A stretch of 64,000 bases of DNA from Candidatus Gastranaerophilales bacterium (GCA_944325885.1 CALVBT010000003.1:40251-104250); one strand, 5' to 3'. Numbered from the stretch's first letter, positions 37,394-43,939 are shown. Made by a program: numbers and translations. Notes: generated by a model from the sequence alone, not told the origin.

Positions 37394-40300
37394 TTATACA
37401 TCTTCATAAGAAATTTCAAGACTGTTAGAATTTGCTATTGCGTTTTGAAAAATCTCATTATTGTACTGCATAATTTTGTTATATTTTTCAATTATTTCCT
37501 GCTGCAGTTTGTGAGCATTTGTACCTTCTTTTGGGTTCAGTTTAACAACAAGTCTTAAAATTGTGGTGAGGTCGTTCAAATCTTCTTGAATTTTGTTAAT
37601 TTCAAGATTTGTTGTAGAAGATATTGCATCTTTGACATCGTTAAACATTTGATTGAGTATTATTGTTTCCGGCAAATCAGGATTTGCAGAAATAACAGAT
37701 TTTACCTCATCAAAAGCATTCAGAATAAAATCAACATTGTTTTGTCTTTTGAGTCCTTTTGTTTTGGCTATTATATGTTTTTTTGCATTTTCTATCAATT
37801 CTTCACAATTTGCATTTTTGTCGAGTGTTTTGTTCAGTTCATCCAACTCACATTGCAATGCTTCATTTTGAAGATTTGTTTCGTTAATAATAGCAGCGAG
37901 TTTGTCTATATCTTTCTTTGAGTCTTCAAAATTAAAAAGATCAGACTCTTTTTTCAGAAATTTTTCCATAAGTCCGAGTTTTTCCAGAAAGATTTGAGCA
38001 GTGCTGTCATCATTTTCAAGAATCAGTGCGTTTACAATATAATTTATAGCCTCATCATCAGCCATTGTTAAAGATGCGCCTGACTCATCAAAAAGAGTGG
38101 TATCGTAATTTTTGAACTTGTTTACAACAAGCCCCGGATTGCCAAGATCCTCTGCATCCATAAGAAGATATTTTATATCAACATAAGATGAAAGCACGAG
38201 AGCATTTTTGAGATATTCTTTCATCAAATCTTTTTCTCTTATCAAGTTGTGCTTTAGATTTTCATTTTTTGTTTTTGCTATCTCGCTATCTTTCGCAGAA
38301 AGTGTAAGATATCTGTCCAGTATTTCCTGAGGGAAATTCAAAATATGATATTTTTTATAACTTTCTTCAATTTTTTCATGCAAATAATCTGATTTTTCTT
38401 CGCTGTAAGGCTGTTTTTTATTTTGTTCAAAATAATCTTTTATATACCCTTTTAAATGCGCCTCTGCATTATCACGGTTTTGCGGTGATATATATGAATC
38501 AACAAATCCGTTGACCAAATTTTCAAGGTTTGTTGCATTTTTGTTTATATTTTTATTAAACTTTTCCACTGACAGATTTGTATTGTTGTAACGTACAACA
38601 AAATTCACAAGCTGTTTGAAACTTTTGCTGTTTTCAACTGTGTTTTTATCCAGTTTTTTGCAGCTGTTCAGCATAGAGAACAAATCTTCTTTTACAGCGG
38701 ATTTATCTTTATTTTTATCAAGAGAAACCATGTAATTTGAAAACTCCTCTGCAAAATTCTGAATATTATCGTTATTCAAAAGTTCATCACCCGCTGCCAG
38801 CATAGCATTCAGCACCTGTCCGTAAAGCTGCTGCTGTTTTTGGGTAACGTTTGAATAAAGATTCTTTGTATTATTAATCTGTTTTAGCAGCGAATCCAGA
38901 TTGTTGAAGAATTCAAGTTTTGTATTATTATCAGCAGACACAGCCATACGTGACAACTGTTCTTCTATCTTTCTTTTGTCAAATATTTTGTCATAATATG
39001 GCATTTTGTTTTTGATTTCTTCGTTTACCCAGTCATAGATATTTTTTGACACATCAGGCCTGTATTTTAACGGAATATCTATAGAAAGAGCCATATTAAC
39101 AGCACTTTTTAAATCATTAAGCAGGGCATCTTTTTTGTCCAGCAAAATTTCCGGCGGATTGAGATTTTTCACTGCAGCAACTTCTTTTTTCCAATCCTCA
39201 AAAGCTTTTTTGTAATCACCGGCAGTGGCTGAGGCAGGAAGCTGCAGCATCTTTTGTGCAGCAGAAAGAGATACCGCTATTGATTCATCATTATGATTTG
39301 CTGTAATAAATTCGTCGAGCATATTTTTCAATGCTTTACGCTGGCTGCTGTTCAAACTTTTGCCGTCAGGTAATGAAGAAAGGAAATTGTCGATATTTTG
39401 TGTAATTTCGTATACAAACAAACTGATTTTTATATTGCTGATTTGAATAACGGTACTAAAAACACAGTCATCAAGAAGATTAATTTTTTTATTTATTATC
39501 TCCTGATTTACGGCAGTTATTTCCGGATAAGCAGGCATTACACCGTATTTTCTGTAGTTTGCATCTTTGTAACGGTTAAAAAGTTTTTTGTAGCCCAATG
39601 ATGACAACGAAAATCTAAAAGATCTGTACAAATCATCATAAGTTCTGTCAGACTTGTAAACAGAGCCTCTGACTTTTTTCTGCAATTTTTTATATTGAAA
39701 ACGTGGTTCCGTATCAGAAAGTTCAATATCGCTGAGCAGATATTTCTGGAACACAAGATTCTGGATGCTTTCTTCGACATCGGAATTTGAAGCATTAAAC
39801 AAACGCACAACATCATAACCTGTATAATGTTTGTAGCCCAAATCTTCGTCTGTTGCATCTTTAGTAAGTTCCAAAAACTGTTCTGTTGTCATATCCTGCA
39901 GCTGTCTATAGATTTTTACAAAATCCTCGTTTGTTTCAGGATTGAATTTTTTGTCTATATATTTAACAATAGCGTTTTGCTGCGGAGTATCCTTAAGCAG
40001 GTCTTTTTCTTTAAAATACAAAACGTCCTGTACGTCTTTTGTCAGGGCTTCTTTTATTTGTGCTTTTGCTTTTTCTCTGTTTGCGGATTCCGGAACAACG
40101 TTGTCGAACTGTTTCAGGACTTTATTTACAAAAAAGTCTATTGTATTTTTCAAGCTTCCGTCAAACATTGCTTTTTCATTTTTTGAATAAACAGCAGTAT
40201 TGGCAATTATTTTTATTTTCTGTTCGTCTGTCAGGTTTATATTATTTTGTTTTAGAGCATCATTCAAAATAGGGATAATATGATTTCTCTTTTTGTTCAA

Positions 40301-43300: not shown

Positions 43301-43939
43301 CGGATTTATGTGATAGTCATCAGAGAGCATATACTGCAGCCTGTTAAGGATATATTTTTTCTGTTTCAATGGAACTTCTGACGAAACAATGAAATAATTG
43401 AGGTTTCTCTCAACGTTTTTTATATTGCTGTTTTTTTCGTCCTTGAGCTGTGACAGGTCAACAGATTTCAGAATATTTTCTTTTAAGTTTAATATTTCTT
43501 TTTCCTCGGGAGAAAGGGGTTTTTGAGTATTAAAGACTCTGTTGATTTCAGGCTGATATTTTTGTCTAACTATCGGGTCAGACGCAAGCAGTGATTTGTC
43601 CGCAGCCTGATGCAGTCTTTTTTTCCAATCGTGTTTTGGTTCGGCATTTGTTTTTATATCCGTTCCGTATTTCAGATTTTCTGCTGTATCAATAAGAAAT
43701 TTGAGATTACTTTCGCCTTTTTCTTGAGCAAGGTTGTCTATTGCTTTTTCTATACGTTTCTGATTGTTTTCGCTGAGTGAATAATCATTCTCCTGCGTCA
43801 ATTGTGTAATTGTGTTTCTGTCTTCTCTTCTGCTTTTAAAAGAAGGTATAACTCTGCTAATATGCGGTAAAGTAAAGTTTAATATATCTATTTTCATTTT
43901 ATCTCTCAATAATGCTGGTCGTTTTGTGTACAAAAACAC
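37394..43939 (-). CDS. Giant protein (2181 aa) containing a split papain-superfamily C1B (bleomycin hydrolase/PepC-like) cysteine peptidase signature; remainder alpha-helical, unknown
   Basis: A single uninterrupted ORF. AINQKSHGMCAAISIARKL (Q246, C252; compare PepC NQKSSGRCW) and GWHAQYISEIEEKDGKDILFHDNTWG (H956, N976, W978; compare HA...NSWG). All plus-strand ORFs inside it are short and low-complexity. No signal peptide seen. Confidence 0.8.
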   Translation of the reverse strand: MFLYTKRPALLRDKMKIDILNFTLPHISRVIPSFKSRREDRNTITQLTQENDYSLSENNQKRIEKAIDNLAQEKGESNLKFLIDTAENLKYGTDIKTNAEPKHDWKKRLHQAADKSLLASDPIVRQKYQPEINRVFNTQKPLSPEEKEILNLKENILKSVDLSQLKDEKNSNIKNVERNLNYFIVSSEVPLKQKKYILNRLQYMLSDDYHINPQLADKKTVVLAEILNDIVVDSATKVPNTKAINQKSHGMCAAISIARKLMSYEYKQKYVDTVLSELDDTDSIKIYDITNLGSGQKISVPKINVDFDTALAKGYRIVDASTTQWMNIADMYGADKVAQGVYTAFDPQHFSVFEDSHYRLPLADSKLKAKHKYYQSLLKAKETVDSVKVFKLKKQYKYNKRQNNLDSDIKMLQELQGSLKNKISAVFPSLSDEQRTKIAHDVEKLQADVSSQIDKIKDGTAKYHFLPNEETSVKEQKIKAYLMEKYGAADAAVTDKNLQQIRELVEMSNSIKDSINAKSNIKDKIAFDRKLFNAAAAYRTALISSLSDEDLITDYMIYYDMPDSDTFFVENIAKVINHIEKTGDERYIKHFSVAFQTEPDKESVLELLYGLYDAVKESYTVELDDFFRKLGIENRKTAMKNSIEVLKSEIENGDKILLQDAAVSLGIKPDKHKIINIYNDFEKALSENITDEEYIDIFNKTGNKNQLRVFADAFNVLAEAMEKPEDETSKFIIKNFNIANGLSEDSPILESKLALQELSEEFNNFSISLANIRNAFEFEDENGNLLNTANPGSAIIKIWENEGKIAAENDMQKLQDRYNAIDKLRSSDEFSSRQGKISDPSLYKYSNQEKLALKNINKSVNSMAAFVNKELTKVYRDLRVPLEEQAKNVGVNTGMFWVPAEGSSGLFDRQEAKILQSLTDKPYSFVSVPEAVEKIKNSPHSGISSTSVFHDKPGWHAQYISEIEEKDGKDILFHDNTWGASEHENIWIDSKGLTRTDYSDKRGGELGYITDNKWRNGNYVENLLHKTGEHFASDIELKNIKKLTNSSEMEHYKFPLISSILINDISKKADDIAAQLKDAIFVPDYLYVDNLSRMAKNMTVDQIKAKKVQSQTAARLYEKEFDDIVKRLQATPFNKGITSKADFDSLADDDVLKVTFEKAALQMSYEYLSFWKELAKIDNIQQLEKIKQKQKDIAIANFKYAFAKDPEILYAYALNKKRNHIIPILNDALKQNNINLTDEQKIKIIANTAVYSKNEKAMFDGSLKNTIDFFVNKVLKQFDNVVPESANREKAKAQIKEALTKDVQDVLYFKEKDLLKDTPQQNAIVKYIDKKFNPETNEDFVKIYRQLQDMTTEQFLELTKDATDEDLGYKHYTGYDVVRLFNASNSDVEESIQNLVFQKYLLSDIELSDTEPRFQYKKLQKKVRGSVYKSDRTYDDLYRSFRFSLSSLGYKKLFNRYKDANYRKYGVMPAYPEITAVNQEIINKKINLLDDCVFSTVIQISNIKISLFVYEITQNIDNFLSSLPDGKSLNSSQRKALKNMLDEFITANHNDESIAVSLSAAQKMLQLPASATAGDYKKAFEDWKKEVAAVKNLNPPEILLDKKDALLNDLKSAVNMALSIDIPLKYRPDVSKNIYDWVNEEIKNKMPYYDKIFDKRKIEEQLSRMAVSADNNTKLEFFNNLDSLLKQINNTKNLYSNVTQKQQQLYGQVLNAMLAAGDELLNNDNIQNFAEEFSNYMVSLDKNKDKSAVKEDLFSMLNSCKKLDKNTVENSKSFKQLVNFVVRYNNTNLSVEKFNKNINKNATNLENLVNGFVDSYISPQNRDNAEAHLKGYIKDYFEQNKKQPYSEEKSDYLHEKIEESYKKYHILNFPQEILDRYLTLSAKDSEIAKTKNENLKHNLIREKDLMKEYLKNALVLSSYVDIKYLLMDAEDLGNPGLVVNKFKNYDTTLFDESGASLTMADDEAINYIVNALILENDDSTAQIFLEKLGLMEKFLKKESDLFNFEDSKKDIDKLAAIINETNLQNEALQCELDELNKTLDKNANCEELIENAKKHIIAKTKGLKRQNNVDFILNAFDEVKSVISANPDLPETIILNQMFNDVKDAISSTTNLEINKIQEDLNDLTTILRLVVKLNPKEGTNAHKLQQEIIEKYNKIMQYNNEIFQNAIANSNSLEISYEDV

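What the first reader, a model, noticed from the sequence alone, without database searches (positions are those of the whole stretch)
37394..43939. 2181-aa giant protein with a split bleomycin-hydrolase/PepC-like cysteine peptidase signature
One uninterrupted 6.5-kb ORF sits between housekeeping genes (CoA-transferase and pgi). Residues 244-262, AINQKSHGMCAAISIARKL, reproduce the C1B motif NQKSSGRCW with the oxyanion Gln six residues before the Cys (Q246/C252, nt about 43186). Residues 954-979, GWHAQYISEIEEKDGKDILFHDNTWG, reproduce the His ... Asn-Ser-Trp-Gly half (H956, N976, W978, nt about 41074-41006).

In PepC-type enzymes these halves are about 290 aa apart. Here they are about 700 aa apart, implying a roughly 400-aa or larger helical insertion. 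Another ~1200 aa of unrecognisable Lys/Asn/Glu-rich helical sequence follows.

The protein has no signal peptide. It could be a secreted effector or toxin, a self-processing polyprotein, or a scaffold with a protease module.
Basis: partly seen in the sequence, partly recalled or inferred. Interest (0 to 1): 0.7.

Follow-up and report, generated by a model that had tools for sequence, protein, structure and literature searches.

The report
Giant split papain-like protease, dimorphic alleles
This is a real, unannotated 2167-residue protein found across gut Melainabacteria; it carries an invariant papain-type catalytic signature split by about 530 residues of helices, and within one species it exists as two deeply divergent, recombining allele types, so it is more than an ordinary housekeeping enzyme.

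Summary
One intact gene lies at 37394-43897 on the minus strand. Its true start is the ATG at 43897, giving 2167 aa. It holds NQKSHGMC (Q232/C238) and H942...DN962-T-W964-G, 704 residues apart.

These residues are invariant in 247 family members, which come from Gastranaerophilales and other Melainabacteria. In a confident AlphaFold model, C238 caps a helix, H942 starts a strand and N962 follows the hairpin, which is the papain topology. Residues in the two halves co-vary.

C1B/PepC membership is not supported. There is no Pfam, HMMER or significant profile-profile match. Foldseek gives only weak staphopain and cathepsin hits. I file it as a new, isolated papain-type (clan CA-like) family: peptidase half, ~530-aa helical stalk and head, peptidase half, then ~1100 aa of all-alpha sequence with no known relative.

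One result was unexpected. In strains whose flanks are 97-100% identical, residues ~500-2167 occur as two allele classes (57-85% nucleotide identity) with at least six recombinant mosaics, all under purifying selection.

The location and substrate are unknown. No conserved neighbours, signal peptide or secretion genes were found.

The parts
37394..43897 (-). Coding sequence of the giant protein (2167 aa from the ATG at 43897; stop codon at 37394-37396).
   Evidence: The exact protein is present on 16 public contigs.
43838..43897 (-). Residues 1-20: N-terminal tail predicted to be disordered. The conserved motif F-K-G-x-R-E-D-R-N-T follows it.
   Evidence: pLDDT about 40; consensus.
43316..43837 (-). 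Residues 21-194: conserved N-terminal helical domain of unknown role.
   Evidence: Helices 23-191 in the model; conservation 0.54-0.73.
42848..43315 (-). Residues 195-350: the Cys-bearing half of the papain-type domain. Q232 is at nt 43204-43202. C238 is at nt 43186-43184, at the N-terminus of helix 235-251.
   Evidence: The best hhalign match to papain places Q232 on Q19 and C238 on C25.
41261..42847 (-). Residues 351-879: all-helical insertion. It consists of a long ascending helix (351-412), a helical head (418-813) and a long descending helix (833-879).
   Evidence: DSSP of the model. C-to-H spacing is 461-777 residues across the family.
40748..41260 (-). Residues 880-1050: the His/Asn-bearing alpha/beta half. 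H942 (nt 41074-41072) starts strand 941-952. N962 (nt 41014-41012) and W964 (nt 41008-41006) follow hairpin strand 955-960.
   Evidence: hhalign matches to papain and calpain are in register with the catalytic residues.
37397..40747 (-). Residues 1051-2167: all-alpha C-terminal region with no detectable relative. It includes a hypervariable, indel-rich stretch at residues 1641-1840 (nt 38378-38977).
   Evidence: Model pLDDT 88, pTM 0.70; Foldseek gives nothing significant; conservation profile.
37397..42397 (-). Residues ~500-2167: the region that is dimorphic within the species. Two allele classes occur, with recombinant mosaics. Nucleotide identity to the other class drops sharply at about nt 42300.

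Best explanation
The gene encodes a lineage-specific giant protein of Melainabacteria (mainly gut Gastranaerophilales) built around a papain-type (clan CA-like) cysteine peptidase domain. The two halves of that domain are separated in sequence by about 530 residues of helices.

**Inferred mechanism**
- C238, at the N-terminus of a helix, and H942, at the start of a beta-strand, form the thiolate-imidazolium pair.
- N962 orients the His, and W964 shields that bond.
- Q232 and the C238 backbone form the oxyanion hole.
- The insertion leaves and re-enters the catalytic domain through two long helices and carries a helical head.
- The head, the N-terminal helical domain and the ~1100-aa all-alpha C-terminal region most likely select or gate the substrate, or anchor the enzyme. 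Accessory domains play this role in calpains, USPs and separase.

**What is shown and what is inferred**
- Shown: invariance of the catalytic residues, their secondary-structure setting, co-variation of the two halves, and the fold confidence.
- Inferred: catalysis, substrate and cellular location.

**Population pattern and location**
- Within one species, residues ~500-2167 are kept as two old allele classes that recombine, while residues 1-500 and the flanking genome are nearly identical.
- I therefore think the variable part meets a variable partner (host, phage or competitor).
- I slightly favour export by a non-Sec route over a purely housekeeping cytoplasmic role.
For: **Real, conserved gene**
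- There are 244 hits of about 1900-2190 aa, all unannotated.
- 77 distinct loci from species-representative genomes were retrieved, most with a single intact ORF of 1900-2200 aa (a few are cut by a contig end). Nearly all are Gastranaerophilales or Melainabacteria.
- The family extends to the groundwater bacterium Melainabacteria GWA2_34_9.

**Catalytic signature**
- Q232 and C238 are present in 246 of 247 sequences; H942, N962, W964 and G965 in 247 of 247.
- The two halves are the conservation maxima of the protein.
- The motif patterns are rare or absent in shuffled sequences.

**Fold**
- The AlphaFold2 model of residues 1-1075 has pLDDT 89.3 and pTM 0.85. The Cys sits on a helix N-terminus, the His on a strand start, and the Asn after the hairpin.
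- Direct-coupling analysis of 247 sequences (effective number 188) places 9 of the top 40 pairs between the halves. Examples are L247-L901, M248-K907, V218-I949 and I216-T963.
- The only compact-domain Foldseek hits are staphopain (1y4h, 1pxv, 1x9y) and cathepsin L3.
- The top hhalign local matches to papain and calpain-2 fall on the catalytic motifs in register.

**Selection**
- dN/dS is 0.04-0.2 in the divergent blocks.

**Dimorphism**
- Searches show it.
- The window allele itself is found on 16 contigs.

**Hints of export**
- Cys content is 0.2%, against 1.6% in the other window ORFs.
- The N-terminal tail is disordered.
- Most Gastranaerophilales retain flagellar export genes, which the authors postulate serve secretion (bioRxiv 10.64898/2026.04.24.720558).
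Against: - No statistically significant similarity to any known peptidase was found. Pfam, NCBIfam and PDB sequence searches are empty.
- hhalign probabilities are all at or below 1.6%.
- Foldseek E-values for the protease hits are 0.8-2.
- Model coordinates could not be read, so the Cys-His distance was not measured.
- No activity data exist.
- Against export: there is no signal peptide or membrane helix. No secretion, chaperone or immunity gene is linked, and neighbours differ between clades.
- The near-universal presence of the gene in the order fits a core cellular function as well as it fits an exported one.
Confidence: 0.62

Rival explanations
1. It is a true member of peptidase family C1B (bleomycin hydrolase / PepC aminopeptidase) that acquired a large insertion.
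For: - N-Q-K-S-x-G-x-C matches the C1B motif NQKSSGRCW better than the C1A motif.
- The best hhalign hit of the N-half against 23 bleomycin hydrolases is exactly this motif.
- H...N-[ST]-W-G is shared.
Against: - That hhalign hit covers 13 columns at probability 0.9%, and the C-half does not align at its His/Asn motif at all.
- Pfam PF03051 does not match.
- A profile search of 1.84 billion proteins returned none of the very numerous C1 peptidases.
- C1B enzymes place their own C-terminus in the active site (my own knowledge). Here 1200 residues follow the domain.
- The longest motif alignment is to calpain-2 rather than to C1B.
Confidence: 0.08
2. The domain has the papain fold but is not a protease of polypeptide chains. 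It would instead be an isopeptidase or deubiquitinase-like enzyme, a deamidase, a transglutaminase or an acyltransferase, acting on a protein modification or a cell-envelope amide.
For: - The papain-like superfamily includes all these activities and tolerates large insertions between the core helix and the sheet, such as the USP fingers (PMC10318531).
- The fold evidence does not discriminate between these chemistries.
Against: - From my knowledge of these families, the full set Gln(-6)/Cys/His/Asn/Trp with an N-x-W-G turn is the hallmark of the papain, calpain and staphopain group of peptidases.
- Transglutaminases and NlpC/P60 enzymes use other third residues and lack the Gln (PMC10318531).
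- No ubiquitin-like or peptidoglycan-related partner gene is linked.
Confidence: 0.15
3. It is a secreted polymorphic toxin or effector whose protease is the warhead or a self-processing module.
For: - Its giant size, all-alpha scaffold, acidity and Cys depletion.
- Strong within-species allele diversity with recombination.
- Weak, non-significant Foldseek matches to a CdiA-CT toxin and to the Umb1 umbrella toxin particle.
Against: - The catalytic domain and N-terminus are the invariant part, and the whole remainder varies. This is not the pattern of a swappable C-terminal toxin module.
- No immunity gene lies downstream. CoA-transferase follows the gene, and neighbours differ by clade.
- No known trafficking domain, signal peptide, or PADLOC or Pfam toxin hit was found.
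- There is one copy per genome across the 77 species-representative loci retrieved (182 matching stretches in the scan), rather than a patchy distribution.
Confidence: 0.12
4. The catalytic-looking residues are structural relics, and the protein is only a helical scaffold, or the ORF is an assembly artefact.
For: - No significant match to any enzyme family.
- About 85% of the protein is helical.
Against: - Invariance of five precisely spaced residues over 247 sequences down to about 33% identity is not expected of relics.
- The same architecture is assembled independently in 77 or more genomes, and the exact window protein occurs on 16 contigs.
Confidence: 0.03

Closest known systems
Papain / cathepsin L (MEROPS C1A, clan CA)
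   Same: - Gln six residues before the catalytic Cys.
- Cys at a helix N-terminus and His at a strand start.
- Asn-x-Trp-Gly after the next strand, and a helix-strand unit before the His strand.
- The top hhalign matches of both halves fall on these motifs in register.
- Cathepsin L3 is among the few compact Foldseek hits.
   Different: - No significant sequence or fold score.
- C-to-H spacing is 704 residues, against 134 in papain.
- No signal peptide or prodomain of the I29 type.
- The domain is embedded in a 2167-aa all-alpha protein.
Calpain protease core (MEROPS C2; subdomains PC1 and PC2)
   Same: - The longest motif alignment covers 45 columns, with H942/N962/W964 on H262/N286/W288 and a following E...W-x-D-S.
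- The order of elements after the Cys helix resembles PC1: helix, beta-hairpin, helices, strands. This comparison rests on my recollection of the calpain sequence and structure.
- The concept is also similar. The Cys and His/Asn lie on two separable subdomains within a large regulated multi-domain protein.
   Different: - Pfam Peptidase_C2 does not match.
- hhalign probability is 1.6% or lower.
- No EF-hand or C2-like domains.
- The inter-subdomain insertion of about 530 residues has no calpain counterpart.
Bleomycin hydrolase / PepC (MEROPS C1B, Pfam PF03051)
   Same: The motif N-Q-K-S-x-G-x-C and H...N-S/T-W-G. The protein is cytoplasmic, with no signal peptide.
   Different: - No Pfam or profile-profile support.
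- Spacing is 704 against 299 residues.
- There is no free C-terminal arm next to the domain.
Staphopain (MEROPS C47)
   Same: It gives the highest-probability compact Foldseek matches: 1pxv_A, 1y4h_A and 1x9y_A, probability 0.25-0.38 over 108-128 columns.
   Different: E-values are 0.8-1.7, TM-score is about 0.3 and rmsd about 8 Å, so the match is not significant. Staphopains are small secreted enzymes with a prodomain.
USP deubiquitinases (C19), as an architectural analogue
   Same: A papain-like core with a large insertion between the Cys helix and the His sheet, in long multi-domain proteins (PMC10318531).
   Different: USP insertions are beta-rich 'fingers' and the catalytic motifs differ. 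No sequence or fold match was found here.

Membership tests
Peptidase C1B (bleomycin hydrolase / PepC, Pfam PF03051) | Match to the family profile at or near its curated threshold | tested here: not met
   There is no hit at E<=10 for the whole protein or for 44 isolated C-halves. NCBIfam has none.
Peptidase C1B (bleomycin hydrolase / PepC, Pfam PF03051) | Profile-profile similarity over the domain to bona fide members | tested here: not met
   hhalign against 23 bleomycin hydrolases aligns 13 columns around the Cys (probability 0.9%) and gives nothing at the His/Asn motif.
Peptidase C1B (bleomycin hydrolase / PepC, Pfam PF03051) | Catalytic Gln/Cys and His/Asn/Trp motifs | tested here: met
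   Searches show the motifs. They are invariant in 246-247 of 247 sequences.
Peptidase C1B (bleomycin hydrolase / PepC, Pfam PF03051) | Cys-to-His spacing of about 300 residues, and a C-terminus that reaches the active site | tested here: not met
   Spacing is 704 here and 461-777 across the family, against 299 in bleomycin hydrolases. About 1200 residues follow the domain.
Papain-like fold, papain/calpain/staphopain group (clan CA) | Cys at the N-terminus of the core helix, His at the start of a beta-strand, Asn/Asp after the following strand | tested here: met
   DSSP of the model shows helix 235-251, strands 941-952 and 955-960, and then N962.
Papain-like fold, papain/calpain/staphopain group (clan CA) | The two halves form one domain | tested here: met
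   pTM is 0.85 for residues 1-1075. 9 of the top 40 direct couplings link the halves, joining the Cys helix and the preceding strand to the His strand, the N-T-W turn and helix 894-905.
Papain-like fold, papain/calpain/staphopain group (clan CA) | Significant structural similarity to a solved member | tested here: inconclusive
   Staphopain and cathepsin L3 are the only compact hits, but at E 0.8-2 and TM-score about 0.2-0.3. A local aligner cannot bridge the ~530-residue insertion.
Papain-like fold, papain/calpain/staphopain group (clan CA) | Cys, His and Asn side chains within bonding distance | not testable with these tools
   The model coordinates are not exposed.
Calpain (C2, Pfam PF00648) | Match to the family profile | tested here: not met
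   There is no Pfam hit. hhalign to a recalled calpain-2 core gives probability 1.6% for the C-half and 0.1% for the N-half.
Polymorphic toxin systems (CDI, Rhs, MafB, Umb type) | A variable C-terminal toxin module with an adjacent cognate immunity gene, plus a recognisable trafficking domain | tested here: not met
   Downstream genes are housekeeping and not conserved. No trafficking or toxin domain was found. Variation spans ~1650 homologous residues rather than a swapped tip.
Anti-phage defence systems (PADLOC) | Match to a known defence protein model | tested here: not met
   There are no PADLOC hits at E<=1.

The most novel reading that the evidence does not exclude
The protein is an exported giant protease of gut Melainabacteria. 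It lacks a Sec signal but has a disordered, conserved N-terminal tail. It would leave the cell through the flagellar-type export apparatus that most Gastranaerophilales retain even without flagella. It would act on a variable external target such as host mucosal or immune proteins, phage, or competitors.

This would explain why one species keeps two ancient allele classes of the substrate-facing two-thirds of the protein, shuffled by recombination, on an otherwise clonal genome. That would be a balanced polymorphism of the vacA or pspA kind, in a phylum for which no host-interaction factor is known.
Probability: 0.15. Interest if true: 0.8.

Novelty: new variant of a known kind. Interest (0 to 1): 0.6.

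Why it matters
Gut Melainabacteria (Gastranaerophilales) are uncultured, widespread in humans and animals, and functionally almost unknown.

- **A conserved, unannotated gene.** This is one of their largest genes. It is conserved across the order, carries no annotation in any library searched, and has a confident predicted structure.
- **A new protease lineage.** If the papain-type site is active, it defines a new, isolated protease family with the largest split between catalytic halves that I know of. It would show how far the helix and sheet of this fold can be separated in sequence.
- **An unexpected population pattern.** Residues 1-500 are monomorphic, while the remaining ~1650 residues are dimorphic and recombining, on nearly identical genomes. 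This marks the protein as a likely point of contact with something variable.
- **Practical uses.** The gene is a candidate strain-typing marker and a concrete target for finding how these bacteria interact with host, phage or neighbours.

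Tried and rejected
**Searches that found nothing**
- Pfam, NCBIfam, PADLOC and PHROGs on the whole protein found nothing usable.
- Pfam on 44 isolated C-halves gave only scattered chance hits.
- PDB sequence searches with the single protein and with a 38-sequence profile found nothing relevant.
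- Foldseek of the N-terminal model against PDB and BFVD, and of the C-terminal model against PDB, gave no hit at E<=0.001. The lists are dominated by generic long-helix matches such as SMC, exportins and tape-measure proteins.
- The full-text paper library holds no description of this family.

**Weak or negative comparisons**
- hhalign of each half against bleomycin hydrolases, papain and calpain-2 produced motif-only alignments below significance. The recalled bleomycin hydrolase sequence was validated at 98% identity.

**Gene context**
- Only close relatives share pgi and CoA-transferase as neighbours.
- No gene family neighbours the giant gene in more than 14 of 77 loci. ftsZ lies convergently downstream in 11 of them.
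- I rejected an operon-based inference for this reason.

**Technical dead ends**
- A 94-row alignment was too large.
- The work-around was to align a window sub-range with full-length database proteins.
Direct-coupling analysis was used as a partial substitute.
- A metagenome scan for more strains of the same species returned only other species. Same-species variants came from the cluster look-up instead.

**Rejected readings**
- Assembly chimera, because of the many independent assemblies.
- Defence system.
- Classical polymorphic toxin.

Full report
**1. The observation**

The window holds one uninterrupted ORF at 37394..43939 on the minus strand. The only Met near the 5' end is codon 15 (ATG at 43897). 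Every homologue begins there and has the matching length, and the exact 2167-aa product is on record on 16 public contigs.

Both motifs are present. AINQKSHGMCAAISIARKL lies at nt 43213-43157 and gives Q232 and C238. GWHAQYISEIEEKDGKDILFHDNTWG lies at nt 41080-41003 and gives H942, N962 and W964. The first motif is one residue off the stated range.

The Cys-His spacing is 704 residues. In an alignment of 23 animal bleomycin hydrolases it is 299.

In 20,000 shuffles of the protein, the loosest ordered version of the signature occurs in 1.5%. NQxxxGxC occurs in 0.05%, and HA...N[ST]WG never occurs.

The neighbours are pgi and two CoA-transferase subunits. No segment is hydrophobic enough for a signal peptide or membrane helix.

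**2. The gene is real and belongs to a distinct family**

A word-indexed search of 5.8 billion proteins returned 244 relatives. They are almost all 1900-2190 aa, none carries a domain or functional name, and the few labelled ones are Candidatus Gastranaerophilales or 'Cyanobacteria bacterium' MAGs.

A scan of one genome per GTDB species found 182 matching stretches that encode a relative. The best 80 gave 77 distinct loci, one per assembly. Nearly all are Gastranaerophilales or Melainabacteria from animal and human guts, and most hold one intact ORF of 1900-2200 aa; a few are cut by a contig end. Two loci carry other taxon labels (Brachyspira, Acutalibacteraceae) and are probably mis-binned.

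An exhaustive profile search with residues 1-1075 against 1.84 billion cluster representatives found only 233 proteins at E<=0.001. All are of this giant type or fragments of it. The most distant are 2100-2480 aa and include a groundwater Melainabacterium. The abundant C1 peptidases did not appear at all.

The family is thus sharply isolated at the sequence level. It is absent from Pfam, NCBIfam, PADLOC, PHROGs and PDB sequences.

**3. The catalytic signature is the core of the family**

In 247 non-identical members, Q232 and C238 are present in 246; the exception is a gap. H942, N962, W964 and G965 are present in all 247. Identity to the window protein falls to about 33% across this set.

Residues 161-320 and 921-1000 are the two conservation maxima of the whole protein. 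The spacing between Cys and His is never short: it ranges from 461 to 777 with a median of 705. The split is therefore ancestral to the family.

**4. Structure**

AlphaFold2 on residues 1-1075 with a 43-sequence alignment gave mean pLDDT 89.3 and pTM 0.85.
- C238 is the fourth residue of helix 235-251.
- H942 is the second residue of strand 941-952.
- A hairpin strand 955-960 follows, then N962 and W964.
- A helix (914-923) and strand (928-933) precede the His strand.

This is the order of elements in papain around residues 117-177 (my knowledge of papain).

The insertion begins with a 62-residue helix (351-412) and ends with a 47-residue helix (833-879). About 400 residues of shorter helices lie between them. 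I read this as a stalk carrying a helical head, but the geometry could not be inspected because coordinates are not exposed.

As a check that does not depend on the model, I ran mean-field direct-coupling analysis on the two halves (247 sequences, effective number 188). Nine of the 40 strongest couplings join the halves:
- The Cys helix (L247, M248) couples with helix 894-905 (L901, K907).
- The strand just before the Cys motif (I216, V218) couples with the His strand (I949) and with T963, which lies between N962 and W964.

The two halves therefore form one domain.

**5. Which family?**

Foldseek of the whole N-terminal model against 350,542 PDB chains gave nothing at E<=0.001. The only compact-domain matches among the top 20 are three staphopain entries and a cathepsin L, with E 0.8-2.0 and probability up to 0.38. 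This is suggestive only, because a local aligner cannot bridge the insertion.

The hhalign results were as follows:
- Against bleomycin hydrolases, 13 columns aligned around the Cys (probability 0.9%), and the His/Asn motif did not align.
- Against papain, the top local matches of both halves are the catalytic motifs in register: Q232/C238 on Q19/C25 (p=0.035) and N962/W964 on N175/W177 (p=0.11).
- Against the calpain-2 core, a single 45-column alignment carries H942, N962 and W964 onto H262, N286 and W288 (p=0.032).

None of these is significant alone. The recalled bleomycin hydrolase sequence proved 98% identical to database entries.

My conclusion is a papain-type domain of the papain/calpain/staphopain kind, but not a demonstrable member of C1B or of any other defined family.

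**6. The rest of the protein**

Residues 21-194 form a conserved helical domain behind a disordered tail that contains the conserved F-K-G-x-R-E-D-R-N-T motif.

Residues 1040-2167 were modelled with pLDDT 88 and pTM 0.70. They are almost entirely helical apart from two small hairpins. Foldseek finds only generic helical matches. Residues 1641-1840 are hypervariable and rich in indels.

The protein is acidic and rich in Lys, Asn and Asp. It holds 0.2% Cys against 1.6% in the other large ORFs of the window. C238 is its only invariant Cys.

**7. Context**

The gene appears to be its own transcription unit, with a promoter-like site at 44017-43988. This is a consensus match only.

Neighbours are housekeeping genes and are shared only by close relatives. 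No gene family accompanies the giant gene in more than 14 of 77 loci. There is no linked secretion, chaperone, immunity or regulator gene.

**8. An unexpected result: dimorphic, recombining alleles**

Two independent assemblies are syntenic with the window: L081 from ENA and L080 from Logan. Over 22 kb and 12 kb they are 97-100% identical to it in nucleotides outside the giant gene. Ten flanking genes show 98.4-100% amino-acid identity and dS of 0.007-0.11.

Inside the gene, identity to L081 falls abruptly at about nt 42300 (near residue 530). It drops to 60-79% and stays there to the stop codon. Against L080, two internal patches between about nt 42280 and 41080 are 73-88% identical, separated by a stretch near 95% (residues ~700-800).

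A three-way comparison shows alternating blocks:

| Residues | Pattern |
|---|---|
| 1-540 | all three equal |
| 550-700 | L080 = L081, window differs |
| 700-800 | window ≈ L080, L081 differs |
| 800-950 | L080 = L081, window differs |
| 950-2167 | window = L080, L081 differs |

Eighteen protein variants of this species taken from the 90% clusters resolve this into two allele classes for residues ~500-2167, plus a minor third variant near residues 500-600. At least six different mosaics occur. Residues 1-500 are monomorphic.

dN/dS within the divergent blocks is 0.04-0.2, so both classes are functional. The two classes are closer to each other (69-85% amino-acid identity) than to any other species' protein, which reach at most 50-70%.

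A second species sampled five times from human gut shows the same tendency in a milder form. Mid-gene patches are 93-97% identical against 98-100% in the flanks.

Across species the protein also evolves fast: about 47% identity where pgi is 81-87%.

Assembly path-switching cannot be fully excluded for individual mosaics. The two classes themselves are each seen in several independent assemblies, and the window allele is seen on 16 contigs.

**9. Interpretation**

The best-supported reading is an active papain-type cysteine peptidase, or a closely related hydrolase. Its active site is assembled from two distant segments inside a giant helical protein specific to Melainabacteria. The helical modules probably provide substrate selection or gating.

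The invariant N-terminal 500 residues hold the Cys half. The dimorphic remainder holds the distal part of the head (from about residue 500), the His half and the C-terminal scaffold. This division suggests that the variable part contacts a variable partner.

Several features make export by a non-Sec route plausible:
- Cys depletion, acidity and a disordered N-terminal tail.
- A report that most Gastranaerophilales keep flagellar export genes even without flagella, with a postulated secretion role (bioRxiv 10.64898/2026.04.24.720558).

No direct evidence supports export, however. Presence across the order without linked genes fits a core intracellular role equally well. I give the catalytic-domain claim about 0.8 and the full statement 0.62. 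Location is close to even.

**10. Novelty and verdict**

The fold and chemistry are of a known kind. The family, the ~530-residue split, the architecture and the allele dimorphism are undescribed in every library and in the paper collection searched.

Its C1B assignment is not supported, and its idea of a split active site is supported. I score interest at 0.6.

Noticed in passing
window 2575-9224 (minus strand) and tRNA at 9691-9763: Two Mu-type transposase genes lie at 3443-5401 and 7239-9224 (Mu-transpos_C, HTH_Tnp_Mu_2), with an AAA_22 ATPase gene at 2575-3450. They sit next to a tRNA gene in the lowest-GC part of the window (0.29-0.33). This looks like a Mu/Tn7-like mobile element inserted beside a tRNA.
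   Followed up: no
window 23591-25552 (+): A 653-aa protein has N-terminal EF-hand calcium-binding motifs, and the rest matches no Pfam family. This is unusual for a bacterium.
   Followed up: no
window 53148-55319 (-), 19693-20838 (-), 50610-51578 (-), 45742-47008 (+): ORFs of 723, 381, 322, 231 and 194 aa have no Pfam match. The last two sit between the T2SSF/PilC-like gene (47065-48078) and pgi, and they are conserved in the syntenic loci L081 and L030.
   Followed up: no
window 15568-16788 (+): This is a fused VKOR-DsbA/thioredoxin protein, a disulfide-bond formation system. It lies beside an O-antigen ligase-like gene (14195-15580). The cell therefore makes periplasmic disulfides, which makes the Cys depletion of the giant protein more notable.
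   Followed up: no
L080 7366-8754 versus window 35928-37327: In the Logan assembly L080 the two CoA-transferase subunits are called as one 462-aa gene. In the window and in L081 they are two genes of 219 and 246 aa that overlap by one base. This is either a fusion or a gene-calling difference.
   Followed up: no
loci L032 (ONYB01000044.1) and L047 (CAVKDD010000094.1): Contigs that carry this Melainabacteria-specific gene are deposited under 'uncultured Brachyspira sp.' and 'Acutalibacteraceae bacterium'. They are probably mis-binned contigs in those MAGs.
   Followed up: no
14 of the 77 genome loci (for example L040 15930-17108): ftsZ is a neighbour of the giant gene in 14 of 77 loci. In 11 of them it lies immediately downstream on the opposite strand. 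The orientation argues against co-transcription, and the association is clade-limited.
   Followed up: partly
distant family members P0204, P0206, P0214, P0220, P0226 (2050-2480 aa): An environmental Melainabacteria branch has a shorter inter-half insertion (Cys-His spacing 461-501 against about 700). Several members are nevertheless longer overall, so length has moved from the insertion to other regions.
   Followed up: partly
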